A stretch of 58,092 bases of DNA, from positions 1 to 58,092 of the IMG/VR virus record IMGVR_UViG_3300037045_000348; one strand, 5' to 3'. Position 1 is the first letter of the stretch; every line of letters starts with the position of its first letter. A program made the translations under genes and the position numbers. Shown one piece after another: positions 1-26,405 of the stretch. This DNA is from a virus. Lineage: Duplodnaviria; Caudoviricetes. Under the pieces are notes generated by a model. It searched no databases and was not told the DNA's origin. It was given only the letters and a program-made list of their open reading frames with translations.

Positions 1-1146
1 TCATGTCGCTGCCTCCAATTGCGCCGCCTTCCCGAGCAGCACGGGTTCTCTTGCTCCGTGGTCCTCGCCCTTGGCCTTCCAATAGGCCACGAGCTTCTGA
101 GCGACCGTCTTCGCTTCTGACACCTCCGGAGCCCGAGCCCGCACGGAGGTTTCGACAATCTCCTCAAGCTTGACCACGATTGCGCCCCGCGCCAGCGCTT
201 CTGCGCGGTACAACTCCGCGCGATTCCGGGCGGCATCTCGATGCTCCGCTGCCACCGTCCAGCGCAGTCGGACCTCAGCGCCGGCGACGTCGGTCAGGCG
301 ATGGAGGCCGAATAGGGTGTTGTGCTCGGGGTCCCAAACGGCGTCTAGCAAAAGCATCGGGGTGGCAGGCGTTTCGACGAACTCCCACCCCCTCCGAACG
401 CTCACCCTGTTGTCGACCCTAATGGTATCCACAATCACGTAGCCCTTCGGGTCGACGTCCCCAAACTCAGTCCTTCGCGGGCTTCCGGGGTAGACGATGG
501 GCTCACGATCGTCCCACGCTTGATGGGCGTGGATGTGCCCAAGGGCCACGAAGTCAGCGCCCGCGAGCCCCAGGTCATCGAGGCCAAGTTCGAGATCGCA
601 TCCCACGAGCGGCTGACCTGCCGTCGTCCGACTCCCCCGCACCATGGCATGGGTAAGCAGGATTCGGGGACCGTCGTGCTGTTCGAGCTGCTGACGGAAC
701 CCGAGCAGGATAGACCGCAGAGCATCGCGTGCGGCGTTCTCGCTTACCTCGTGGGACGCGTGCCCCATCCTCGCCATCAACTCAGCCTTTCGGGGCCATG
801 CGAGGCACGCGACGGCGCACCCTGCGACGTAGCGCACGCACGCCTTTTCCTCGGCAAAGATCGGGTACTTGCTCCCCAGCTTGCCCATGAGCTCGATGTC
901 GCCAAGCGCGTCATGGTTTCCGCGCACGATGACCACCGGAGCTTGCTGCGCCACATCCGCAAGCCATTCGGCCACCTTGAGCCGTTCCGTGGGAGTGCTC
1001 TTCGCGTCGAACAGATCTCCGCTGTGCAGGACCAGATCGACACCGCGCGCGGCAATGTCTCCCTGGATCCACTCGTGGATGCGGCAGGTCTCTTCCCAGC
1101 GCGAGCGCTCGCAAAAGTGACTGTCGGCGATGATTGCGATTCTCAT
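1..1146 (-). CDS. sbcD: SbcD/Mre11-like metallophosphoesterase exonuclease
   Basis: Motifs IADSH, HSGDLFD, RGNHD, THAM, LGHIH, YPGSP; ATG overlaps the stop of the upstream ORF (ATGA 1143-1146). Confidence 0.9.
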   Translation of the reverse strand: MRIAIIADSHFCERSRWEETCRIHEWIQGDIAARGVDLVLHSGDLFDAKSTPTERLKVAEWLADVAQQAPVVIVRGNHDALGDIELMGKLGSKYPIFAEEKACVRYVAGCAVACLAWPRKAELMARMGHASHEVSENAARDALRSILLGFRQQLEQHDGPRILLTHAMVRGSRTTAGQPLVGCDLELGLDDLGLAGADFVALGHIHAHQAWDDREPIVYPGSPRRTEFGDVDPKGYVIVDTIRVDNRVSVRRGWEFVETPATPMLLLDAVWDPEHNTLFGLHRLTDVAGAEVRLRWTVAAEHRDAARNRAELYRAEALARGAIVVKLEEIVETSVRARAPEVSEAKTVAQKLVAYWKAKGEDHGAREPVLLGKAAQLEAAT

Positions 1147-1337
1147 GAGTCCTTGCCTCCAAGGGCGTTGCGGTAAACGCTTGCGGCCTTGTTGTGGACG
1201 TCGATAAGAACGCCTAGCGCTTTCGCGTACTCGGTGGACTTGTCCGAAAGTAGGTTGTAGGCCTCGATCGCTGCGTCGAGTTGTTTGGCCTCTCGCCGAT
1301 ACCCTTCTTGCAACGATGCTTCTAGTATGCGGTTCAT
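1143..1337 (-). CDS. Hypothetical 64-aa helical protein
   Basis: Strong SD AGGAGGA at 1341-1347; stop coupled to the sbcD start. Confidence 0.75.
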   Translation of the reverse strand: MNRILEASLQEGYRREAKQLDAAIEAYNLLSDKSTEYAKALGVLIDVHNKAASVYRNALGGKDS

Positions 1338-1347
1338 TTTTCCTCCT

Positions 1348-1421
1348 TGGTGGAGCGCCCCGGAGTCGAACCGGGATCAGGCCTTTCGGCGGGTACTTCT
1401 GCAGCCGGATACCTGCGCCCC
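1348..1421 (-). ncRNA. tRNA-like RNA with Ala acceptor identity (G3-U70, A73, CCA) and no canonical anticodon arm
   Basis: Acceptor GGGGCGC/GCGCTCC followed by A-CCA; perfect T arm CCCGG-TTCGACT-CCGGG; stem GGTAT/GTACC; hairpin GCC-GAAA-GGC. Confidence 0.75.
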
Positions 1422-1424
1422 AGG

Positions 1425-1450
1425 GCCCCGTCGAGCAGAGACGGGGCTTT
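1425..1450. other. GC-rich hairpin just 5' of the tRNA-like RNA (terminator-like on the + strand)
   Basis: GCCCCGTC-gagcaga-GACGGGGC followed by TTT. Confidence 0.5.
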
Positions 1451-1715
1451 CGGGTCGGGACCATGGGCCAGTCAGCGGACACCACGCGATACAGACACCC
1501 CGCGGCATCGGATTGCCAAAGCTCGACGGGACCCTTCGCGATCACGTGGTCATCGTCGACCAGTTCGGCGCACCATCCTCCATCCGTGCGCAGGATTCGA
1601 ACGGTCGCATACTTCCCGTGTGGATGAAAGCAAGCCGAGGTGATTTCGTCGCAGATGTCGGCCACCGCCTTGGGACTGGATTTGTCCTGAGTCATGCCTT
1701 CTCCTCGCCCCCAGG

Positions 1716-2855
1716 TCAGAAGTTGTCCGGGTCGTCACCCCGGGAATCGTACCCATCGCCCACGGGAGCATGGGCAGGCTCGGAGCCGCTACGGCTCGCA
1801 ATGATGGCCCGCGCTTCGTCGCAAAGTGCGGCGTTCTTCGCCTGCCACTCCGGCTTGCCGGGGTTCTTCTCGTAGTAGGAAATGAGCCTCTCCAAGTGCT
1901 CGCCACCGACGTTCAAAAGGTCGTCTCCCTTCTCCGGGTCGCCTTCCTTCTTCGCCGCCCACGGCCAGACGCCTCCCGAGCTGGATTGCTGTCGAGGGGA
2001 GGATTCGCGCTTCGGGGGAGGTTGACGTGCGGGCAATTGCGGAGCCGCATCCCCATCGTCCTCATCGTCGTAGTCCACCACGGCTGCCATGACCGGAGGC
2101 GCGGGAGACGCGGCAGGAAGGGCAACCTGGGGGCCGGGCGTACCGTAGAGCGCGCGCATGCCGCCCATCATCGCTGCAGCCCTCATCCTGAACGCTTCTG
2201 CTCGCAAGACCGGATCGTCTGTCGCGCCCGTCCACATGAGCTTGGCGACCACGAAGGGTTTCCCCAGTTCCTCCCGCGTGTACGCCGTCCTGATTCCGAG
2301 GGAGCGAATCGCCCGCAGCCTCGCCTTGGTCTCCGCGTGCGCCGCGATGTGTAGGCGCATCTCCCGGATCTGGTTGTCTGCCGCCCGGTTCTTCGCAGCC
2401 GCGCGTTGCTCGAGCGCTTCGACCTGGGGGGAATTGGGCCTCAAGTCCATCTCCTTCGTGCCCATGATCTGAACCTCGGTGCCGTCGAAGTGCCGATAGG
2501 TCCCGACGGCGAGCCACGAGCAATACCGAGGGTCCCGCCCGTCATCGAGACGACGAGACTGGTGCGCATCCCAGGTCACGCCGGCGGCGGCGGCGACCCG
2601 ATCCAGCGCGCTCTTGCCCAGCCCGAACTTGCCCATCCCCACGTCGTAGACTTCTCCGTTGCGCGGGTCCGGGTCGATCTGGATCTGCGAGATTGCCACC
2701 TCGCAGCCTTCGGGGACGGAGGCGATCGCTGTGGCCGGGGCGACCAGGTGATACTTCTCCGAAGCCGTCGAAAGGTGCTGTGTGATCTTCGCGGCGTCTC
2801 GCTGGTAGCCCGTCGCGATGCCCGTTTCCTGCCGTCTTGCCAGTGCCTGTCCCAT
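1716..2855 (-). CDS. Putative single-strand annealing/recombination protein
   Basis: SD GGAGGA; conserved-looking AETKARLRAIRSLG..YTREELGKPFVV core, acidic/Pro-rich tail, near sbcD. Function inferred from context. Confidence 0.5.
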   Translation of the reverse strand: MGQALARRQETGIATGYQRDAAKITQHLSTASEKYHLVAPATAIASVPEGCEVAISQIQIDPDPRNGEVYDVGMGKFGLGKSALDRVAAAAGVTWDAHQSRRLDDGRDPRYCSWLAVGTYRHFDGTEVQIMGTKEMDLRPNSPQVEALEQRAAAKNRAADNQIREMRLHIAAHAETKARLRAIRSLGIRTAYTREELGKPFVVAKLMWTGATDDPVLRAEAFRMRAAAMMGGMRALYGTPGPQVALPAASPAPPVMAAVVDYDDEDDGDAAPQLPARQPPPKRESSPRQQSSSGGVWPWAAKKEGDPEKGDDLLNVGGEHLERLISYYEKNPGKPEWQAKNAALCDEARAIIASRSGSEPAHAPVGDGYDSRGDDPDNF

Positions 2856-2866
2856 GTCGTTCCTCC

Positions 2867-3040
2867 TCAGTTCACAACCGTCGTTTGCAGTTCCTCTTTC
2901 GCCCGCTCCAACCATTCGAGCTGGCGGGTATCCCCCGTCCGAATCGCCCGACACGCGGCCCGGCGTCTCGCCCTCTCCCACGCGAGCCATATGCTTCGCG
3001 CTGGTGGGCAGTACCGATTGATTACGCCTCCGACTTGCAT
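2867..3040 (-). CDS. Hypothetical 57-aa protein (MQVGGVINRY...), below the ORF-track cutoff
   Basis: SD GGAGG before ATG; fills the gap in the operon. Confidence 0.5.
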   Translation of the reverse strand: MQVGGVINRYCPPARSIWLAWERARRRAACRAIRTGDTRQLEWLERAKEELQTTVVN

Positions 3041-3168
3041 AGCGCCTCCAGTGCAGCTTCCACGGCCGCGTCGTCGCCATCGGCCAGCATGTCGACCAGG
3101 GTGCCAAGGCCAAGAGACAGCAGGGCCTCACGCATCACACACAACCTCTCAAATGCCTCCACACTCAT
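3022..3168 (-). CDS. Hypothetical 48-aa acidic protein
   Basis: SD GGAGGAG before ATG 3168. Confidence 0.55.
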   Translation of the reverse strand: MSVEAFERLCVMREALLSLGLGTLVDMLADGDDAAVEAALEALCKSEA

Positions 3169-3182
3169 GACTCCTCCTTCGC

Positions 3183-3362
3183 TCAGATCCCAAGGTCGGA
3201 CCACGACGAGGCCGGAGGAGGAACACTCCCCGTCGCGGGCCGGTCTTGGGATTCGAGCGCTTCGCGCATCTGTTCGACGCGGGTCCGGTGAACTGCAAGC
3301 CACTCAAGCGGCGTCGAGTACTTCATCATGCTGGCAAACATCAATTCGGCGTAGTCGATCAT
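3183..3362 (-). CDS. Hypothetical 59-aa protein (MIDYAELMFA...)
   Basis: ATG directly follows the stop of the DUF6884 gene; fills the gap. Confidence 0.5.
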   Translation of the reverse strand: MIDYAELMFASMMKYSTPLEWLAVHRTRVEQMREALESQDRPATGSVPPPASSWSDLGI

Positions 3363-3818
3363 CTACGCTCCCAACTCCTGCCCCGCGGCGAGGGCCTTGT
3401 AGAGCACCCCGATGGACACCGCGGCAGCACGCCCGCGCATTCCGTGGTTCTCTCGACAAACCCGCAGGGCGCGAATGTAGCTCTCTACGTAGGGGAAGCT
3501 CTGCAGGGGCGCCATGTACGCGGCCCCCAAGATCGTCGTGAAGATCGTGTCCCGATCGTACCGGCGCATGAGCTCATCCCGACATCGGTCGACCCATGCC
3601 TGGCGCTCAGTAGGGGCGAGCGCGTCGAGGCGGAGGTCGTAGGGCTCGATTACCGTATCGGGGTCCACCACGCCGTACTTCGCGGAGAGGATGACCCACG
3701 GCATCCTCTTGTCCATCCACGCTGCGGCCGCCCGAAACGTCCGCGAGCAGTAGATCTCGCGGGCCGGGGCAGGCCGGTCCAGCTTGGTTTTCGAGCAGCC
3801 GATGATTCCGACTCTCAT
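3363..3818 (-). CDS. DUF6884-family (YaaA-like) protein
   Basis: GCSKTK..PAREIY.S..F...ILSAKYG..P...IEPYD signature. Confidence 0.75.
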   Translation of the reverse strand: MRVGIIGCSKTKLDRPAPAREIYCSRTFRAAAAWMDKRMPWVILSAKYGVVDPDTVIEPYDLRLDALAPTERQAWVDRCRDELMRRYDRDTIFTTILGAAYMAPLQSFPYVESYIRALRVCRENHGMRGRAAAVSIGVLYKALAAGQELGA

Positions 3819-20221: not shown

Positions 20222-20740
20222 ATGACGCAGAAGACGATGGCGACGAAGACCAAGCCGAAGCCGAAGACGACCAAGGTCACGCCAATAACGCTGCGCACGA
20301 TGGACCGGGCCGCGAAGGCGCTCGAGATGAAGCGTGATGGCGCCACGTACGACGCCATCGGCAAGAAGCTCGGCATAACCAGGCAGGCCGCGTGGAAGCT
20401 CATCCAGAATCGGTTCGCGGATATTCGGAAGCAGACCGAGGAGTCCGCTGAGGATGTGCGGGATCAACAGCTCATGCGTCTGGACGGGTTTCTCTTCGCT
20501 CTGCGTGGAAAGGTGAAGCGAGGGGACCCTCGGGCCATCGATTCAGCGCTGCGTATCGAGGACAGGCGAGCCAAGCTGCTCGGACTGGACGCCCCATCGC
20601 GAACAGAGGTGAGTGGTCCCGACGGTGGAGCAATCGAAATCGAAGACGCCCGTGGACAGCTCGCCGAAGCGCTTGCGCGACTTGCTCCGCAGGATGAGCC
20701 CGAGCCAGGTCCGTCAGGCGATAGCGACGCTGCCGGATGA
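20222..20740 (+). CDS. terS: Terminase small subunit
   Basis: N-terminal HTH, RRAKLLGLDAP, EVSGPDGGAI; directly upstream of terL. Confidence 0.8.
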   Translation: MTQKTMATKTKPKPKTTKVTPITLRTMDRAAKALEMKRDGATYDAIGKKLGITRQAAWKLIQNRFADIRKQTEESAEDVRDQQLMRLDGFLFALRGKVKRGDPRAIDSALRIEDRRAKLLGLDAPSRTEVSGPDGGAIEIEDARGQLAEALARLAPQDEPEPGPSGDSDAAG

Positions 20741-22742
20741 ATCGGCGCGAGTTCTTCTCTACGATTGGCGAGGTGTCTGGGCGCGGGAGCAACAGCTTCC
20801 GCCCGATTGGGCCTGGGTCATCTGGCTCATTCTTGCGGGACGAGGGTACGGCAAGACAAGAACCGGGGCGGAGTGGGTCCGTGACCGAGTAGAGTCCGGC
20901 CAGGGCAAGCGACTCATCATCGCGGGGCCCACGTCCGACGACATCCGGGACATCATGATTGAGGGGGAGTCCGGCCTTCTGGCCGTTTCCCCGCTGTGGA
21001 ACAAGCCCATCTACCTGGCGAACAAGAGTCAGGTGGTGTGGCCGAAGTGTGGAGCCAAGGCGCTGTGTATCACGGCGGAGAAGCCGGACAGGTTTCGCGG
21101 GAAGCAGTGTTTCGTTGCTGGGACGATGGTCGCCACATCACGAGGCGATGTCCCAATTGAGAGAGTTGTTGCTGGCGACAAGGTTCTCACGCGTCATGGA
21201 TATTTCAGCGTGTCGAACCTCATGTCGTCGGTGGCCGAAGTCGGCCGAGTCTTGTTTTCGGACGGGACGTCGCTTGTTGGCACGCGTGACCACCCTGTGT
21301 GGTCGGGAGGCGATTGGTGGGAACTGGGGTACCTATCTGCGGGGTCGAAAACGTGGTCTGGAGAGTTGGGACGAACGGCTACGTCATCGGGTACGCCGAC
21401 GGGAAGCATTGCATCCAGCACCGCGTCATTTGGGAGCAGAATTACGGTCCCATACCCGACGGATGGCACGTGCACCACAAGGACGGGGACAGGGCGAACA
21501 ATGCCCTGTCAAACCTCGAATGCATCCCCCAGCGGATTCACTACGACCGACATATCGACAGTAGAGAGTGGAAAGACGTCGTTTGCTCCGAGTGCGGTAG
21601 AACCTACACAAGAGCGCGACGAGGCAGCGGCGTGTGTCCCTCGTGCCAACAGGCAAGAGCGGACGCTGCACGATCGAGGAACGAAAAGATTTGTCTCTAC
21701 TGTGGAAGGGCGTTTCTTACTCGCTCTGGCCGATACTGTTCGCAGCGTTGTGTCAACCTGGGAGCACGTTGGGGCAAGGCGGGTCTTCAACCTGACAGTT
21801 GAAGGGTGCCACGAGTACTTCGCGAACGGCGTGCTCGTTCACAACTGCGATTCGTTCTGGGCAGACGAACTCGCGAGCTGGCGATATCCGGACGCCTGGA
21901 ATCAGCTACAGCTCGGGTTCCGGCTCGGGACGAATCCGCAGGGCATCGTCACCACTACCCCGCGGCCAACTCTGCTGATCAAGAAGCTGGTAGCGAGAGC
22001 TGGGCAAGACGTCGCGATGACGCGCGGCACGACCTACGACAACCGAGCGAACCTCGCAAAACAGTTTCTGGAACAGATCATTCGCGAGTATGAGGGGACG
22101 AGGCTGGGCAGGCAGGAGCTCGAGGCCGAAATCCTCGAGGACAACCCGAACGCCCTTTGGGCTCGTGCGCGCATTGACGACTTGCGCGTCATGTCGCGCG
22201 AGGGCCTGCCTCAGATGCGCAGGGTCGTGGTTGCGATCGACCCCGCGGTGTCGACCAACCCGCGCAGCAACGAGACAGGCATCATCGTTGTGGGCCTCGG
22301 CGAGGATGGGCACGCATACGTACTCGACGATCTGTCCGGCATCTACTCCCCAGCCCAGTGGGCCGCACGGGCGATTGAAGCATTCGACAGGTGGGAAGCC
22401 GACTACATCGTCGGCGAGGTCAACAATGGCGGCGACCTCGTTGAGCGAAACGTGCAGGTGGAACGAGACGACGCGCCACCGTTCAAGTCGGTGCACGCCT
22501 CTCGAGGCAAGCAGGTCCGCGCAGACCCGATCTCGACACTGTACGAGCAGGGCAGGGTCCACCACCTCGGCATCCTGGGTCGTCTCGAGGACCAGATGTG
22601 CGGGTGGGACCCGGCAAATGATGATGATTCTCCAGACAGGGTGGATGCTCTGGTTTGGGGCGTCACGTTCCTGGACCTGAATAAGAAGCTGCAGGACTAC
22701 GACGGAATTCGTCGTGGAAGACGAAGCGCGAGAGGACGATGA
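20694..22742 (+). CDS. terL: Terminase large subunit containing an intein
   Basis: AGRGYGKT Walker A, FWADE Walker B, VTTTP, AIDPA, DRVDA nuclease motifs. Confidence 0.95.
   Translation: MSPSQVRQAIATLPDESARVLLYDWRGVWAREQQLPPDWAWVIWLILAGRGYGKTRTGAEWVRDRVESGQGKRLIIAGPTSDDIRDIMIEGESGLLAVSPLWNKPIYLANKSQVVWPKCGAKALCITAEKPDRFRGKQCFVAGTMVATSRGDVPIERVVAGDKVLTRHGYFSVSNLMSSVAEVGRVLFSDGTSLVGTRDHPVWSGGDWWELGYLSAGSKTWSGELGRTATSSGTPTGSIASSTASFGSRITVPYPTDGTCTTRTGTGRTMPCQTSNASPSGFTTTDISTVESGKTSFAPSAVEPTQERDEAAACVPRANRQERTLHDRGTKRFVSTVEGRFLLALADTVRSVVSTWEHVGARRVFNLTVEGCHEYFANGVLVHNCDSFWADELASWRYPDAWNQLQLGFRLGTNPQGIVTTTPRPTLLIKKLVARAGQDVAMTRGTTYDNRANLAKQFLEQIIREYEGTRLGRQELEAEILEDNPNALWARARIDDLRVMSREGLPQMRRVVVAIDPAVSTNPRSNETGIIVVGLGEDGHAYVLDDLSGIYSPAQWAARAIEAFDRWEADYIVGEVNNGGDLVERNVQVERDDAPPFKSVHASRGKQVRADPISTLYEQGRVHHLGILGRLEDQMCGWDPANDDDSPDRVDALVWGVTFLDLNKKLQDYDGIRRGRRSARGR
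21108..21845 (+). mobile_element. Intein (246 aa) in TerL
   Basis: Begins CFVAGTMV (block A), has TRDHPV (block B), ends VFNLTVEGCHEYFANGVLVHN followed by Cys+1. Confidence 0.95.
21317..21802 (+). CDS. HNH homing endonuclease with C-terminal Zn ribbons, nested in a different frame inside the intein
   Basis: HRVIWEQNYGPIPDGWHVHHKDGDRANNALSNLEC; SD GGGAGG at 21305-21310 before GTG 21317. Confidence 0.85.
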   Translation: MGTGVPICGVENVVWRVGTNGYVIGYADGKHCIQHRVIWEQNYGPIPDGWHVHHKDGDRANNALSNLECIPQRIHYDRHIDSREWKDVVCSECGRTYTRARRGSGVCPSCQQARADAARSRNEKICLYCGRAFLTRSGRYCSQRCVNLGARWGKAGLQPDS

Positions 22743-24400
22743 GCTGGCGAGACCAAACAAGCAAGACGCTCACCCGATTGGGGAAGCGTGTGCTTGCCAT
22801 CGCCAGCGCCGTGAGCCTCGCCTCCTCCCCGGCGCCAAGGCTCCAGAAGTCCACCCCGTATGAGGAGGACTCGCCGAGAGCTTCCGCGGTGGAGTGGAAT
22901 CCCCGGCTCATCAAGCAGGCCGAGCGGATGGCAGACGGCGGGTCGCTTCGCCTCGCGGCCCAGCTCTGTGACCAGATCCTCGCGGATGACCGGGTATCCG
23001 GGTGTCTGCGGGAGGTCAGGGTCCGCGGGCTTCTCGGCCTACCCGTCTCGTTCGAGCCGCCGAATGAGGACACAGCTTCCCCGGTCGACGAACTCGCCGA
23101 AGACTGGTGGCAGATGGTCCCAGAGGACACTCTATCCGAGTGGATGGAGTGGGGAATCATCCTCGGCATCGGTGTCGGGCGGGTGGCGAGTTGGGAGCGT
23201 GTGGAGCAGCCGAGCGGAGTCCGCTTGCTGCCGCACCGAGACGATGGGACGGTGGGGTTTGATGTCATCCACCCATCCGCTCTCCGATACGACTTCGAGC
23301 AGAAGGCCTGGTTCGCGAAGCAGAAGTCCGGGGATGAGGTGCGAGTCACCCCGGGAGATGGCACGTGGGTCGTGTACATGCCGTACGGGGCCAAGCGCCC
23401 GTGGACCCGCGGGGCATTCCGCAGCCTTGCCAGGTGGTGGCTGCTCAAGAGCTACGCAGTAGGCGACTGGGGGCGGTACTCGGAGCGCCACGGGCAAGGG
23501 CTGCTCGTCGGCCACGCCCCGGCCGAGGCGCGCAAGGCCGATCGCGACGAGCTCGCGGCGGACCTGCAGGATCTGGGGCGGGAGACCTCGATCGCGCTGC
23601 CCCCCGGCTACGATCTGAAGCTTGTCGAGGCGGAGGCGAATACCTGGGAGACATTCAAGGCCCAGGTGGAGATGGCAAACACCGCCATCGCCATTCGCAT
23701 CCTTGGACAGAACCTGTCCACCGAAATACAAGGTGGAAGCTACGCCGCAGCCGAAATCCACAAGGCGGTTGCGGCCTCGATCATCCGCGCAGATGACGAG
23801 ACCAGCGCCACCACCCTCCGCTCTCAGCTCATCTGGTGGTGGACGGTATTCAACTTCGGAGACGGTCGGAAGGCCCCATGGCCGAAGCGGGACACGACGC
23901 CTCCGGCCGACACCTCCGCCCTCGCAAAGACCCTGATCGACGCCGCGGACGCGCTTGAGAAATGGACAGCGATGGGGGCACCGGTAGATAACGAGGCTTT
24001 CGCGAGGACGTTTCGAGTACCCCTCGTCGATGGCAAGGCGTGGGAAGTCCGAACTCCGATCTACTCTCCCAGTTCGCCACAGACTCTCGTGCAGAAGCGC
24101 CTCGCCTCTGGAGACAACCCCGCGGATGCGACCGGCGCCATTCGCGGCCAGTCCTTCGTGGACACTGTGGGCGCGGGAGCGGTGCAGTCTGCGGCAGCGG
24201 CGATCGAGCCTGGCGTTGCCGAGTTGCTCGAAATCATCGAGGGTCTGGAGGACGGGGCAGATTGGCCGGACAGGCTGAGATCCACCCTCACGCGCCACTA
24301 CGAACAAACCAACAACCCTTCTGCCCTCGAGTCGCTGGTGCACAAGGCGATGATTCTGGGGGAGCTCGCCGGCAGAGTAGCCGTCGTCGAGGACCTGTAA
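22739..24400 (+). CDS. Portal protein (Mu gp29/DUF935-like)
   Basis: After terL; DWGRYSERHG, ILGQNLSTE..GGSYAAAEIH. Confidence 0.85.
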   Translation: MSWRDQTSKTLTRLGKRVLAIASAVSLASSPAPRLQKSTPYEEDSPRASAVEWNPRLIKQAERMADGGSLRLAAQLCDQILADDRVSGCLREVRVRGLLGLPVSFEPPNEDTASPVDELAEDWWQMVPEDTLSEWMEWGIILGIGVGRVASWERVEQPSGVRLLPHRDDGTVGFDVIHPSALRYDFEQKAWFAKQKSGDEVRVTPGDGTWVVYMPYGAKRPWTRGAFRSLARWWLLKSYAVGDWGRYSERHGQGLLVGHAPAEARKADRDELAADLQDLGRETSIALPPGYDLKLVEAEANTWETFKAQVEMANTAIAIRILGQNLSTEIQGGSYAAAEIHKAVAASIIRADDETSATTLRSQLIWWWTVFNFGDGRKAPWPKRDTTPPADTSALAKTLIDAADALEKWTAMGAPVDNEAFARTFRVPLVDGKAWEVRTPIYSPSSPQTLVQKRLASGDNPADATGAIRGQSFVDTVGAGAVQSAAAAIEPGVAELLEIIEGLEDGADWPDRLRSTLTRHYEQTNNPSALESLVHKAMILGELAGRVAVVEDL

Positions 24401-24410
24401 GGAGCACACC

Positions 24411-24827
24411 ATGGCCGACAAGACCGCAACGTTTTCCATCGCGCTGTCCTTTCCCAATTCCGCCGGGGCCGTTGCCTCTGCGCCGACCCAGGTCGTTGCC
24501 GTTCCGTACCAGGCCATGACATACGGGGAACTCGACATCCCCGACGCCATGGCGGCCAGCGAAGAGCTCACGATCTCGCTTGGTGGCATTGACACGGCGG
24601 TGACCGGCCTTGTGCTCAAGAACGAGTCTGGGCAGGAGCTGGAGATCGAGTTCGGAGGAGCTGCGGCCAAGTCGTTCAGTTTGCCTACTGGCGGGCTGAT
24701 GGTGGTTGCCGTCCCGTCCGCGCCCGCGGAGACGCCTATTACTGCGCTTACGGTCACCACCAGTGCCGAGCAGGATGGCGCTGGCATCGTGAAGTACTGG
24801 GCCTTCGGCGACCCGACCGGGGTGTGA
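24411..24827 (+). CDS. Hypothetical beta-rich virion protein
   Basis: SD AAGGAG; lies between portal and MuF. Confidence 0.6.
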   Translation: MADKTATFSIALSFPNSAGAVASAPTQVVAVPYQAMTYGELDIPDAMAASEELTISLGGIDTAVTGLVLKNESGQELEIEFGGAAAKSFSLPTGGLMVVAVPSAPAETPITALTVTTSAEQDGAGIVKYWAFGDPTGV

Positions 24828-24830
24828 TGA

Positions 24831-26405
24831 ATGGCTGCGCCGTGGGCCGCATCGACTGACGTGGAGGAGTTCTCCGCGGCCGCAGCGTGGCTCCTGGCGC
24901 GGGCCCCAGTGACGAAGTCGGTTTGGGATACGCTGGACGAAGAAGCCCAGCGCCGTGCGTTCACGGTCGCAGGCGTGGCGCAAGCCGACCTACTGCGTGA
25001 CGTGCTGCTGGCCTTGGACCGGGCGGTGGCGAACGGCACGACGCTCGAGGACTTCAAGCGAGACGTCGGGCAGCAGCTCATCGACGCGTGGGCCGGGAGC
25101 GTGCCGAACCCTGCGTGGAGGCTCGAGACCATCTTCCGGACCAACGCGCAAGCCGCGTACAACGCCGGAAGGTTCAAGCAGCAGTCCGATCCGGCCATCG
25201 TGAAGGTCCGGCCCTTCTGGCAGTTCGACGCCGTCCTCGACAACCGCACGTCGCTGATGTGCGAGAAGTCGGACGGCACAGTGCTCCCGCACCACCACCC
25301 GTGGTGGAAGGAGCACTACCCGCCCCTCCACTTTGGCTGCCGATCGATCGTCAGATCGCTCAGGCGGTCGCAGGCGGAGACCAAGGGCATCACGGATAAG
25401 CCCACTGACGAGCCGGCACAGGACGGCTTCGGGCTGGTTCCAGGGGCATCCGAGTGGAAGCCCGACACGAAGAAGTACCCGCCGGACATCCGCAAGGAGC
25501 TCGAGGGACGCCTCAAAAGGACCGGAAAGCCGCGCTCAACGCCCAAGCCAAAGGCGGAGAAGCCGAAACCGCAGCCCAAGGCGAAGGAGCCGAAGCCCGA
25601 ACACACGGCTGCGCACTGGGAGAAGAGCTTCGCTCACCTGGGAGACGCCGCGCGAGCCGCAGCCTGGGGCAGAGCCTCTCAGGAGCGCGGGCTGGACATG
25701 ACAGCCGAGCGGGCTGCGGAGCTCGTGCGGGTACATGGGCTCGCAAAGCACGTTGGGGCCGGCGACAAGTTTGCTGAGATAGAGGCCATGGCCAAGTCCT
25801 TCCCGAACAAGCCGATCCGGGACCTTGGCGTGAAGCATTCCGAACCGATGGCTGCCCTCCTGGGGCATCTTGATGGCGTCAAGGCGAAGCCCGGCACGGC
25901 CGTCATGGTGAAGGTGACCGGCAAGGGCCCCAAGGCCGAGCTCGATGCGGCGAAGGCCTGGCTGGACGCTCACCTCGACAGCGACGTCAACACGAAAGCC
26001 GTACTCCGATGGCTACGGCCGACGAAGCGCGCGTCCTGTGACATCTTGTCCTCGACTCCGGTCGTCAAGGCCTACAACCTGCGGTCGATTCTGCACGAGT
26101 GGGGTCACGCGATCGAGGTGAACAACCCAGCGATCCTCAAGTCTGCCAAGGCGCTGTTCGAGGCCAGGACCGCGGGAGAGGCAATAAAGAGCCTTCGATC
26201 CCTCACTGGCAAGGCGTACAAGCTCAGCGAGATGGCGAAGAGGGACATGTGGTTCGACCCGTACTGTGGAAGGGTATACGGCTTCGACGCCACGGAATTG
26301 CTCTCGATGGGCATTGAGCACCTGGCGCGGGACCCATTCTGGACTTACCATCTGGATCGTGAGCACTTCTGGTGGGTGCTTGGGTGTCTCGGAGGTTCAG
26401 CGTGA
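24831..26405 (+). CDS. MuF/gp30 head morphogenesis protein with a C-terminal HExxH metallopeptidase-like extension
   Basis: RAFTVAG, LETIFRTN..AYNAGR, PPLHFGCRS; Lys/Pro linker; LHEWGH...TELLSMG. Confidence 0.85.
   Translation: MAAPWAASTDVEEFSAAAAWLLARAPVTKSVWDTLDEEAQRRAFTVAGVAQADLLRDVLLALDRAVANGTTLEDFKRDVGQQLIDAWAGSVPNPAWRLETIFRTNAQAAYNAGRFKQQSDPAIVKVRPFWQFDAVLDNRTSLMCEKSDGTVLPHHHPWWKEHYPPLHFGCRSIVRSLRRSQAETKGITDKPTDEPAQDGFGLVPGASEWKPDTKKYPPDIRKELEGRLKRTGKPRSTPKPKAEKPKPQPKAKEPKPEHTAAHWEKSFAHLGDAARAAAWGRASQERGLDMTAERAAELVRVHGLAKHVGAGDKFAEIEAMAKSFPNKPIRDLGVKHSEPMAALLGHLDGVKAKPGTAVMVKVTGKGPKAELDAAKAWLDAHLDSDVNTKAVLRWLRPTKRASCDILSSTPVVKAYNLRSILHEWGHAIEVNNPAILKSAKALFEARTAGEAIKSLRSLTGKAYKLSEMAKRDMWFDPYCGRVYGFDATELLSMGIEHLARDPFWTYHLDREHFWWVLGCLGGSA

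What the first reader, a model, noticed from the sequence alone, without database searches (positions are those of the whole stretch)
21108..21845. TerL intein hides its HNH homing endonuclease in an overlapping reading frame
Seen: the intein frame is open from CFVAGT to VHN/C, but its centre is a Ser/Thr-rich stretch with no endonuclease motifs. The same DNA read in the +2 (-1) frame encodes a complete HNH protein (HRVIW...HHKDGDRANN..NL plus four Cys pairs) with its own SD GGGAGG and GTG at 21317, ending at 21802 within splicing block F. About 490 nt are therefore dual-coding. Established: intein endonucleases are normally in frame and released by splicing. Inference: this selfish element separates mobility from splicing, so the HNH is translated independently while the intein frame must stay stop-free. 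Standard annotation would call it a mini-intein and miss the nuclease. Similar non-canonical inteins may have been noted in other phages, so novelty needs a literature check.
Basis: partly seen in the sequence, partly recalled or inferred. Interest (0 to 1): 0.85.

Follow-up and report, generated by a model that had tools for sequence, protein, structure and literature searches.

The report
Terminase intein with hidden out-of-frame HNH gene
A self-splicing intein in a phage packaging gene carries its homing nuclease as a separate gene in a shifted reading frame of the same DNA; the layout is conserved in many phages and was first described in print in 2025.

Summary
The TerL ORF (20613-22742) holds a 246-aa class-1 intein (21108-21845). 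In frame -1, 21317-21802 encodes an intact 161-aa HNH_3 plus zinc-ribbon endonuclease (Pfam E 1.2e-17), preceded by GGAGG and a GTG start.

In the TerL frame the intein centre (residues 89-204) is stop-free, Ser/Thr-rich and predicted unstructured. The HNH frame folds confidently, and its best solved match is I-HmuI.

The window alone could be chance (P about 0.06-0.10 for an open frame). However, 28 of 31 related lineages have the same frame offset with the TerL frame open. These range from 30% to 69% GC and include the GenBank phages TJE1 and phiCDHM19. Joint probability is about 1e-40.

Variation among close relatives is mostly synonymous in the HNH frame, so the HNH is the selected protein. 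A related phage carries a precise intein-less allele (GKQ|CDSFWADE).

Sequencing error is excluded and programmed frameshifting is unsupported.

The concept is in print. A 2025 preprint by Gosselin et al. reports an endonuclease VII-like nuclease in frame 3 of actinophage inteins. Here the nuclease family is different and the distribution is much wider. I file it as a new member of a known kind.

The parts
20613..21107 (+). TerL N-extein (ATPase domain up to just before Walker B), ending ...DRFRGKQ
   Evidence: ORF. Terminase_6N. Colinear with the intein-less allele L052.
21108..21845 (+). Class-1 intein in the TerL frame, 246 aa: Cys1, block B GTRDHPV, C-terminal VLVHN followed by Cys+1
   Evidence: Hint_2 E 3.4e-7 and Intein_splicing. 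Invariant C1, T6, H62, H245 and N246 in 14 relatives. AF2 pLDDT above 90 for residues 1-88 and 205-246.
21372..21719 (+). Intein residues 89-204 in the TerL frame: a stop-free, Ser/Thr-rich linker predicted to be unstructured. It is the shadow of the HNH gene read in the +1 frame.
   Evidence: pLDDT below 50 and no secondary structure. 33% S+T. No blastp similarity to relatives, while the flanks are similar.
21304..21309 (+). Shine-Dalgarno-like GGGAGG, 7 nt upstream of GTG 21317
   Evidence: Sequence. SD scan. SD-like motifs occur in 12 of 28 lineages against 28 of 393 control triplets.
21317..21802 (+). Nested HNH endonuclease gene in frame -1 relative to TerL. It encodes 161 aa: an N-terminal beta-sheet domain, an HNH_3 core and two zinc ribbons. 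The stop TGA is at 21800-21802. GTG 21299 and TTG 21314 are alternative starts.
   Evidence: HNH_3 E 1.1e-17. PHROG HNH families. Invariant H35, H53, H54, N66, H75 and four Cys. AF2 pLDDT 86.2. Top PDB match is I-HmuI.
21846..22742 (+). TerL C-extein starting CDSFWADE (Cys+1, Walker B), followed by the nuclease domain
   Evidence: Terminase_6N/6C. 93% identical to the intein-less L052 and L056.

Best explanation
The element is a mobile class-1 intein inserted just before the Walker B motif of the large terminase. Its homing endonuclease is not an in-frame domain. It is an independent gene nested in the -1 reading frame of the intein's central region.

Proposed mechanism:
(1) Ribosomes reading terL translate through the intein. 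The 116 central codons give an unstructured Ser/Thr-rich linker that only has to stay free of stop codons. The two Hint lobes (residues 1-88 and 205-246) fold and splice, restoring ...GKQ-CDSFWADE... and an active TerL.
(2) From the same mRNA a second initiation at GGGAGG-N7-GTG (21317) yields a 161-aa I-HmuI-like HNH enzyme with two zinc ribbons.
(3) In a mixed infection or a lysogen, this enzyme nicks or cuts intein-less terL alleles near GKQ|CDSFWADE. Repair then copies the intein plus the HNH gene into them.

Shown here: the anatomy, conservation of the arrangement, purifying selection on the HNH frame, intact catalytic residues in both proteins, and the existence of an intein-less allele.
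Inferred: independent translation (my odds about 0.7), splicing, and homing activity and target (about 0.7).
For: Anatomy.

Recurrence:
- 48 of 51 loci, and 28 of 31 lineages clustered at 85% HNH identity, have the TerL frame open across the HNH gene, always at the same offset.
- GC ranges from 0.30 to 0.69.
- The set includes GenBank phages TJE1, phiCDHM19 and Rhodobacteraceae phage MD07, where the annotated terL CDS is offset by one base from the HNH match.
- All 20 host ORFs scanned in Pfam carry intein (Hint) domains flanking the HNH region, 17 of 20 also match a terminase family, and none shows an in-frame HNH.

Stop avoidance: joint P is 1e-39.6 by synonymous randomisation and 1e-75 by the Poisson control.

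Which frame is selected:
- Identity is 0.44 in the HNH frame against 0.28 in the host frame, and is higher in all 21 pairs.
- Among 97 variants within close clusters, 54 are HNH-synonymous and 21 host-synonymous. Of 94 variable sites, 55 fall at HNH codon position 3.
- The host-frame centre has no blastp similarity in 26 of the 27 related lineages, one weak match aside (L051, E 0.007), whereas the intein N region (25 of 27) and C region (16 of 27) usually do.

Folds: HNH pLDDT 86.2 with I-HmuI 1u3e as top hit. The intein centre has pLDDT below 50 and its lobes above 90.

Start: every lineage with an HNH motif has ATG, GTG or TTG 30-56 codons before the LHR motif. SD-like motifs occur in 12 of 28 against 7.1% of control triplets, binomial p 1.8e-7.

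Mobility:
- L052 and L056 have a 463-aa TerL exactly colinear with the window's exteins, 82-85% nt identity, and no intein.
- They have no HNH homolog in the locus or the record.
- The same intein-plus-HNH unit sits at the Walker B region and at a nuclease-domain site.
- HNH clades follow the insertion site: 2 changes on the tree against 7.4 in shuffles, with 0 of 500 shuffles as low.

Not an artefact: contigs from four other runs show 0 differences and 0 indels over the parts they cover, including both frame boundaries.
Against: - There is no direct evidence of translation of the HNH, of splicing or of cleavage.
- For this copy alone the open frame is not significant (P 0.06-0.10).
- The nearest HNH relative is only 65% identical, so whether this particular copy is active cannot be judged from variation.
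- SD-like motifs are missing in 16 of 28 lineages. My SD count allowed a choice among 1-5 candidate starts per lineage, which inflates it.
- The Foldseek match to I-HmuI is weak in geometry (TM 0.41, E 1.9e-3).
- The lineages share ancestry, so the joint probabilities overstate independence.
- The runs X4-X7 come from the same habitat and year as the likely source and may not be independent.
- The intein-less records are only 44-54% complete.
Confidence: 0.85

Rival explanations
1. Sequencing or assembly artefact. Two compensating indels hide what is really an ordinary in-frame HNH intein.
For: In-frame HNH inteins are a known type (cited in the Gosselin preprint, section 8). One database protein, P0144, has the TerL C-terminal part, Hint and HNH_3 in one frame.
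Against: The same offset occurs in 28 of 31 lineages from many assemblies and in cultured GenBank phages. Contigs from four other runs match with no indel at either boundary. A search for longer, fused relatives found 1 protein, and it has no Hint domain.
Confidence: 0.01
2. Relic. The HNH ORF in this window is a decaying remnant that is no longer expressed. The TerL frame is open only because terL is essential, so functionally the element is a mini-intein with a long linker.
For: The open frame in the window alone has P 0.06-0.10. Remnants do exist, such as the HNH tail in L046. There are no expression data.
Against: The ORF is full length, with all invariant catalytic and Cys residues of the family, and it has an SD and a start. 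The family shows purifying selection in the HNH frame. The fold is confident.
Confidence: 0.07
3. Programmed -1 ribosomal frameshift. The HNH is made as a fusion to the TerL N-extein and the intein N-lobe, not from its own start.
For: The frame relation is -1, as in many programmed shifts. P0144 shows that an N-lobe-HNH fusion can exist in one frame.
Against: A canonical X XXY YYZ heptamer lies in the entry zone in only 3 of 28 lineages, and not in the window. Start codons sit at a conserved distance and SD motifs are enriched. In many lineages an in-frame stop lies a few codons before the start.
Confidence: 0.04
4. The nested HNH is a packaging cofactor of terminase, like the HNH proteins encoded next to cos sites, rather than a homing enzyme.
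For: It lies inside terL. Zinc-ribbon HNH enzymes beside terminase genes are common (abstract of PMC3592412, seen in the listing).
Against: Related phages with a 93% identical C-extein lack both the intein and any HNH homolog in the records held. The HNH always travels with an intein, at two different TerL sites, and its clades follow the site. The family is HNH_3 and I-HmuI-like.
Confidence: 0.03

Closest known systems
Non-canonical actinobacteriophage inteins with an endonuclease VII-like nuclease 'in reading frame 3 relative to the intein' (Gosselin, Arsenault and Gogarten, bioRxiv 10.1101/2025.01.02.630785; I read the abstract, sections 8 and 15, and passages of section 28)
   Same: Same strand and the same frame offset (frame 3, i.e. 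-1). The nuclease gene sits in the region between the splicing blocks, the host frame is kept open and predicted unstructured, terminase large subunit is among the hosts, and the proposed origin is invasion of an intein by a free-standing nuclease gene.
   Different: The nuclease family differs. Here it is HNH_3, I-HmuI-like, with two zinc ribbons. There is no Endonuclease_7 match even at E<=10, and tblastn of the HNH listed no PhagesDB-type actinophage apart from Tetrasphaera TJE1 among the records shown. The distribution goes well beyond actinophages, reaching Clostridium, Rhodobacteraceae and many metagenomic phages. I could not see the preprint's supplementary tables, which may list further types.
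Fractured genes with split inteins and a free-standing nuclease gene between the halves (Dassa et al. 2009, PMC2677866; abstract seen)
   Same: A nuclease gene occupies the intein's endonuclease site as a separate ORF. A relative of this very family has that form: in Vibrio phage 1.238.A (L049) the TerL frame stops inside the HNH region and restarts as a Hint C-lobe ORF.
   Different: In the window the host frame is continuous, so the intein is contiguous and cis-splicing. The nuclease family is also different.
ShiLan domain: a hidden out-of-frame HNH inside a phage DNA methylase gene (Arsenault et al. 2025, PMC11855218; abstract and section 4 read)
   Same: An out-of-frame HNH with a GTG start lies inside a host ORF that stays stop-free. 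The same question arises of how the HNH is translated.
   Different: ShiLan has no splicing domains, so the insert stays in the protein. Here the insert is flanked by an intact intein that can remove it. That paper reports no detectable ribosome-binding site, whereas the window has GGGAGG.
Antisense LAGLIDADG nuclease in the cyanobacterial dnaX intein (cited; Phillips et al. bioRxiv 10.64898/2026.09.14.751524, abstract only)
   Same: An intein whose nuclease is not in the intein frame. The suggested origin is secondary invasion of a mini-intein.
   Different: Opposite strand, according to the citation, and a LAGLIDADG family nuclease.
I-HmuI (PDB 1u3e), the intron-encoded HNH nicking homing endonuclease of Bacillus phage SPO1
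   Same: Best solved-structure match of the HNH model, with an N-terminal beta-sheet DNA-binding part followed by the HNH core. The Pfam family is HNH_3.
   Different: I-HmuI is encoded in an intron, not an intein. The C-terminal DNA-binding part here is two zinc ribbons. The similarity is weak (TM 0.41, 19% identity).

Membership tests
Class-1 intein (Hint fold) | N-terminal Cys/Ser nucleophile and block B TxxH | tested here: met
   Cys1 of CFVAGT and GTRDHPV. C1 and H62 are invariant, and T59 is in at least 90%, of 14 aligned inteins.
Class-1 intein (Hint fold) | C-terminal His-Asn followed by Cys/Ser/Thr at +1 | tested here: met
   VLVHN|CDS at 21831-21854. Relatives end in HN, SN, AN or AQ followed by C, S or T.
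Class-1 intein (Hint fold) | Hint domain recognised by profile and by fold | tested here: met
   Hint_2 scores 31.2 bits against a cut-off of 28.4. The AF2 beta-rich lobes have pLDDT above 90. No fold search of this model was run.
Class-1 intein (Hint fold) | Precise in-frame insertion in a conserved host site, with intein-less alleles | tested here: met
   The L052/L056 TerL is 463 aa, which is 709 minus 246, with the junction GKQ|CDSFWADE.
Class-1 intein (Hint fold) | Protein splicing activity | not testable with these tools
   Needs expression of the precursor.
HNH_3 / I-HmuI-like homing endonuclease | Profile match above the curated cut-off | tested here: met
   PF13392 at 63.7 bits against 24.8. 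Fourteen PHROG HNH families match.
HNH_3 / I-HmuI-like homing endonuclease | Conserved catalytic His, Asn and His residues | tested here: met
   H35, H53, H54, N66 and H75 are invariant in 24 sequences. Assigning a role to each residue is from recall.
HNH_3 / I-HmuI-like homing endonuclease | Fold like a solved member | tested here: inconclusive
   The top hit is 1u3e with prob 1.00, but E is 1.9e-3 and TM 0.41.
HNH_3 / I-HmuI-like homing endonuclease | Site-specific cleavage of the element-free allele | not testable with these tools
   Needs a nicking or cleavage assay on the L052-type site.
Inteins with an out-of-frame nuclease (Gosselin et al. 2025) | Nuclease ORF between the splicing blocks in another frame, with the host frame open | tested here: met
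Inteins with an out-of-frame nuclease (Gosselin et al. 2025) | Nuclease of the endonuclease VII-like type (IPR004211) | tested here: not met
   No Endonuclease_7 match in Pfam at E<=10.
Fractured gene / split intein (Dassa et al. 2009) | Host gene split into two ORFs around the nuclease gene | tested here: not met
   The window has a single 709-aa ORF. The feature is met only in the relative L049.

The most novel reading that the evidence does not exclude
The out-of-frame layout may not be a short-lived intermediate, as the published model suggests. It may instead be the ancient, stably selected architecture of a large, cross-phylum clade of terminase inteins. These sit at two catalytic sites of TerL, the Walker B region and the nuclease motif.

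On this reading, uncoupling nuclease synthesis from TerL synthesis is itself adaptive. Dual coding has then been held through divergence down to about 25% protein identity. Most of the 1102 database clusters that match the HNH profile at E<=1e-30 could be such hidden genes, and many annotated 'mini-inteins with long linkers' in phage terminases would be misread.
Probability: 0.5. Interest if true: 0.65.

Novelty: new member of a known kind. Interest (0 to 1): 0.55.

Why it matters
- Standard annotation calls one terL ORF and misses the nuclease. GenBank records of TJE1, phiCDHM19 and MD07 annotate only terL there. Such inteins are then read as nuclease-less and presumed immobile.
- The family offers many natural cases of long same-strand dual coding in which one frame needs only to avoid stop codons. 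That makes it a clean system for studying overlapping-gene evolution and internal initiation inside a translated ORF.
- The set contains free-standing, nested, split-intein and one-frame fused forms of one nuclease family. These are the stages proposed for how inteins acquire nucleases.
- The intein-less allele in L052 gives a concrete target for a homing assay.

Tried and rejected
- megablast of terL against GenBank phages gave no match.
- The word-based search for longer fused relatives returned 1 protein of 285 aa with no Hint domain. This is weak evidence, as the tool itself says. The near-length search returned 8 proteins, which shows that gene callers rarely call the nested ORF.
- Endonuclease VII membership is rejected.
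- Programmed frameshifting: slippery heptamers in 3 of 28 lineages, none in the window.
- Expression: no RNA holder is listed among 21 runs, so nothing can be said about expression.
- All laid runs were contigs, so depth and transcript ends cannot be read from them.
- I did not test whether the HNH and splicing-domain trees are congruent. I also did not fetch the preprint's example phages (Angelicase, Affeca, Keitabear, Sedona), because I had no accession numbers. The statement that their nuclease is a different family therefore rests on the preprint's InterPro label and on my Pfam result.
- Supplementary files of the papers were closed. They may list further out-of-frame nuclease types, including HNH.
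- The query 'terminase + intein + HNH + different reading frame' found 0 papers. A report of this exact family in journals outside the held library cannot be excluded.
- Complex prediction, the protein atlas and the RNA tools were not used.
Full report
**What is there**

The window is an IMG/VR provirus record of 58 kb with about 64% GC. A single 709-aa ORF at 20613-22742 on the + strand is the large terminase. It matches Terminase_6N and Terminase_6C, with Hint_2 and Intein_splicing matches in between. A small-terminase-like ORF lies upstream and a portal-like ORF downstream.

The intein runs from Cys1 of CFVAGT (21108) to VLVHN (21845) and is followed by Cys+1 of CDSFWADE, the Walker B region.

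On the same strand, shifted by +2 (-1), ORF 21299-21802 matches HNH_3 at E 1.2e-17 and 14 PHROG HNH families. GGGAGG at 21304-21309 precedes GTG 21317 by 7 nt. The stop TGA at 21800-21802 falls inside the codons for LTVEG of the C-terminal splicing region.

**Is it more than chance?**

For the window alone, hardly. With the HNH protein held fixed and codons redrawn from local usage, the TerL frame stays stop-free with P 0.064. From the stop density of the +1 frame elsewhere in terL, P is 0.10. High-GC DNA has many long spurious ORFs. The answer has to come from relatives.

**Relatives**

A scan of viral contigs with the HNH protein gave 46 loci at 25-65% identity. Loci were selected by HNH similarity only, not by the state of the host frame. 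I added four GenBank phages. With the window this makes 51 loci in 31 clusters at 85% HNH identity.

- In 48 of 51 loci (28 of 31 clusters) the frame +1 relative to the HNH is open across the whole HNH gene and belongs to an ORF of 392-1217 aa. The HNH-frame ORFs themselves are only 150-305 aa.
- The offset is the same in all 28, from 30% GC (Clostridium phage phiCDHM19) to 69% GC.
- All 20 host ORFs scanned in Pfam carry Hint or Intein_splicing matches flanking the HNH region, 17 of 20 also match a terminase family, and none has an HNH domain in the host frame. The remainder align to the window's exteins.
- In GenBank, TJE1, phiCDHM19 and Rhodobacteraceae phage MD07 annotate only terL over this DNA.
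- Joint probability of the open frames is 1e-39.6 by synonymous randomisation and 1e-75 by the Poisson control. Lineages share ancestry, so these are upper bounds on significance. The sequences have nevertheless diverged enough that the frame must have been kept open actively.

The three exceptions are informative:
- L041 is a free-standing HNH gene among structural genes.
- L046 is a remnant of the HNH tail upstream of an intein-less TerL.
- L049 (Vibrio phage 1.238.A) has the TerL frame stopping inside the HNH region and resuming as a separate Hint C-lobe ORF. This is a split-intein 'fractured gene'.

**Which frame is the protein?**

- The intein N region is recognisably similar to relatives in the host frame in 25 of 27 lineages and the C region in 16 of 27 (26-54% and 33-81% identity). 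The centre gives no blastp match in 26 of 27, not even to L002 whose HNH is 65% identical, and only one weak match (L051, E 0.007).
- In codon alignments of seven same-site lineages, identity is higher in the HNH frame in all 21 pairs, with means of 0.44 against 0.28.
- Within close clusters, 97 single-site variants split as 54 HNH-synonymous (51 of them host-nonsynonymous) against 21 host-synonymous. The 94 variable sites fall 25, 14 and 55 on HNH codon positions 1, 2 and 3. That is the signature of purifying selection on the HNH frame only.
- All 24 aligned HNH proteins keep H35, H53, H54, N66, H75 and four Cys.
- AlphaFold gives the HNH frame a mean pLDDT of 86.2. Its best solved match is the homing endonuclease I-HmuI, with prob 1.00 but a weak TM of 0.41.
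- The same DNA in the TerL frame gives two Hint lobes above pLDDT 90 (residues 1-88 and 205-246) joined by 116 residues below 50 with no secondary structure.
- The Ser/Thr richness (33% against 9.5% in the exteins) is a by-product. NAC codons for His, Asp, Asn and Tyr in the HNH frame read as ACN (Thr) one base on. For example, GWHVHHKD shadows as GTSTTRT (inference from the sequence).
- At the 3' end both frames are structured and both are conserved: YCSQRCVNLG in the HNH frame against SVVSTWE in the host frame.

**How the HNH is made**

Each of the 30 lineages with an HNH motif has ATG, GTG or TTG 30-56 codons before the LHR motif, often a few codons after an in-frame stop. SD-like motifs precede the start in 12 of 28 nested lineages against 28 of 393 (7.1%) control triplets in the same frame of the same genes. 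The binomial p is 1.8e-7, somewhat inflated because I could choose among candidate starts.

Canonical -1 slippery heptamers occur in 3 of 28 lineages and not in the window. Independent initiation is therefore the best reading, but it is inferred.

One database protein, P0144, has the TerL C-terminal part, the Hint N-lobe and the HNH in a single frame. It may be a real variant or an error.

**Mobility**

A scan with the C-extein found L052 and L056. Their TerL is 93% identical in the C-extein and is 463 aa, which is 709 minus 246. It is exactly colinear with the window's exteins, reads ...GKQCDSFWADE..., has 82-85% nucleotide identity and has syntenic flanks. They have no HNH homolog in the loci or in the records, which are 44-54% complete.

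The intein-plus-HNH unit occupies the Walker B region, at three positions a few residues apart, and also a conserved acidic motif near the end of the nuclease domain. On the HNH tree the site label needs 2 changes against 7.4 in shuffles, with 0 of 500 shuffles as low. The window sits in a 100/98-supported clade of seven Walker-B-site enzymes. Kin share labels, so this shows clustering rather than co-evolution.

**Not an artefact**

Contigs from four other groundwater runs lie on 21000-21950 with no differences and no indels. X4 covers both frame boundaries. These runs may belong to the same campaign as the source.

**Family size**

A profile of the 24 HNH proteins finds 66,585 cluster representatives at E<=1e-3 and 1102 at E<=1e-30. 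Most of the top 150 are 185-300 aa. The library gives no genomic context, so how many are nested is unknown.

**Comparison with what is known**

- Inteins whose nuclease is not in frame have been noted since 1998 for antisense LAGLIDADG genes, as cited.
- Gosselin, Arsenault and Gogarten (bioRxiv 2025; I read the abstract, sections 8 and 15, and passages of section 28) report antisense LAGLIDADG and VSR-like nucleases in actinophages. They also report, as new, an endonuclease VII-like nuclease 'in reading frame 3 relative to the intein', with TerL among the hosts. They propose invasion of inteins by free-standing nuclease genes.
- Arsenault et al. 2025 describe a hidden out-of-frame HNH without an intein.
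- Phillips et al. 2026 describe the dnaX case (abstract only).
- Dassa et al. 2009 describe the split form (abstract).

The window's element has the architecture of the 2025 preprint, including the frame offset. Its nuclease belongs to a different Pfam family, and the distribution I found is far wider. My four literature searches found no report of this HNH_3 family nested in terminase inteins.

**Verdict**

It is a new member of a recently described kind. The added result is that the layout is conserved, selected and widespread.

Noticed in passing
L049 (Vibrio phage 1.238.A, NC_055735) 3-3476: The same HNH family sits between the halves of a split intein. The TerL frame stops about 40 codons into the HNH gene, and a separate 114-aa ORF supplies the Hint C-lobe plus a short C-extein. 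The same TerL also carries an upstream LAGLIDADG-type intein.
   Followed up: partly
L022 2-3625 and L036 104-3754: TerL ORFs of about 1210 aa carry two inteins: an upstream one with an in-frame LAGLIDADG_3 domain, and a downstream one with the nested out-of-frame HNH.
   Followed up: no
P0144 (database protein, 357 aa): Terminase_3C, the Hint_2 N-lobe and HNH_3 lie in one reading frame, ending at the HNH stop. This could be an in-frame fusion variant, a fractured form or a frameshift error. Its genomic context could not be fetched.
   Followed up: partly
L046 2956-3138 and 3107-4501: A 61-codon remnant of the HNH zinc-ribbon tail (YCSQRCVNLA...) lies just upstream of an intein-less TerL with an intact Walker B. 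It looks like a relic of an earlier HNH gene.
   Followed up: no
L041 2797-3297: A free-standing member of the same HNH family, with GGAGG and a GTG start, lies among structural genes and not in a terminase.
   Followed up: partly
window 20222-20740 and 20613: The small-terminase-like ORF overlaps the longest terL ORF by 128 nt. The real terL start may be further downstream than GTG 20613.
   Followed up: no
window 23132-25279 (- strand): A 715-aa antisense ORF lies opposite the portal region. It is typical of spurious long ORFs in high-GC DNA, and is a reminder that open frames alone mean little here.
   Followed up: no
Intein junctions of L005, L012, L013, L014, L037 compared with the window: Within the Walker B region the insertion point differs by a few residues between lineages: Q|CDSFWADE, W|CDE and WCDEL|C. 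This suggests site sliding or separate invasions of neighbouring positions.
   Followed up: no
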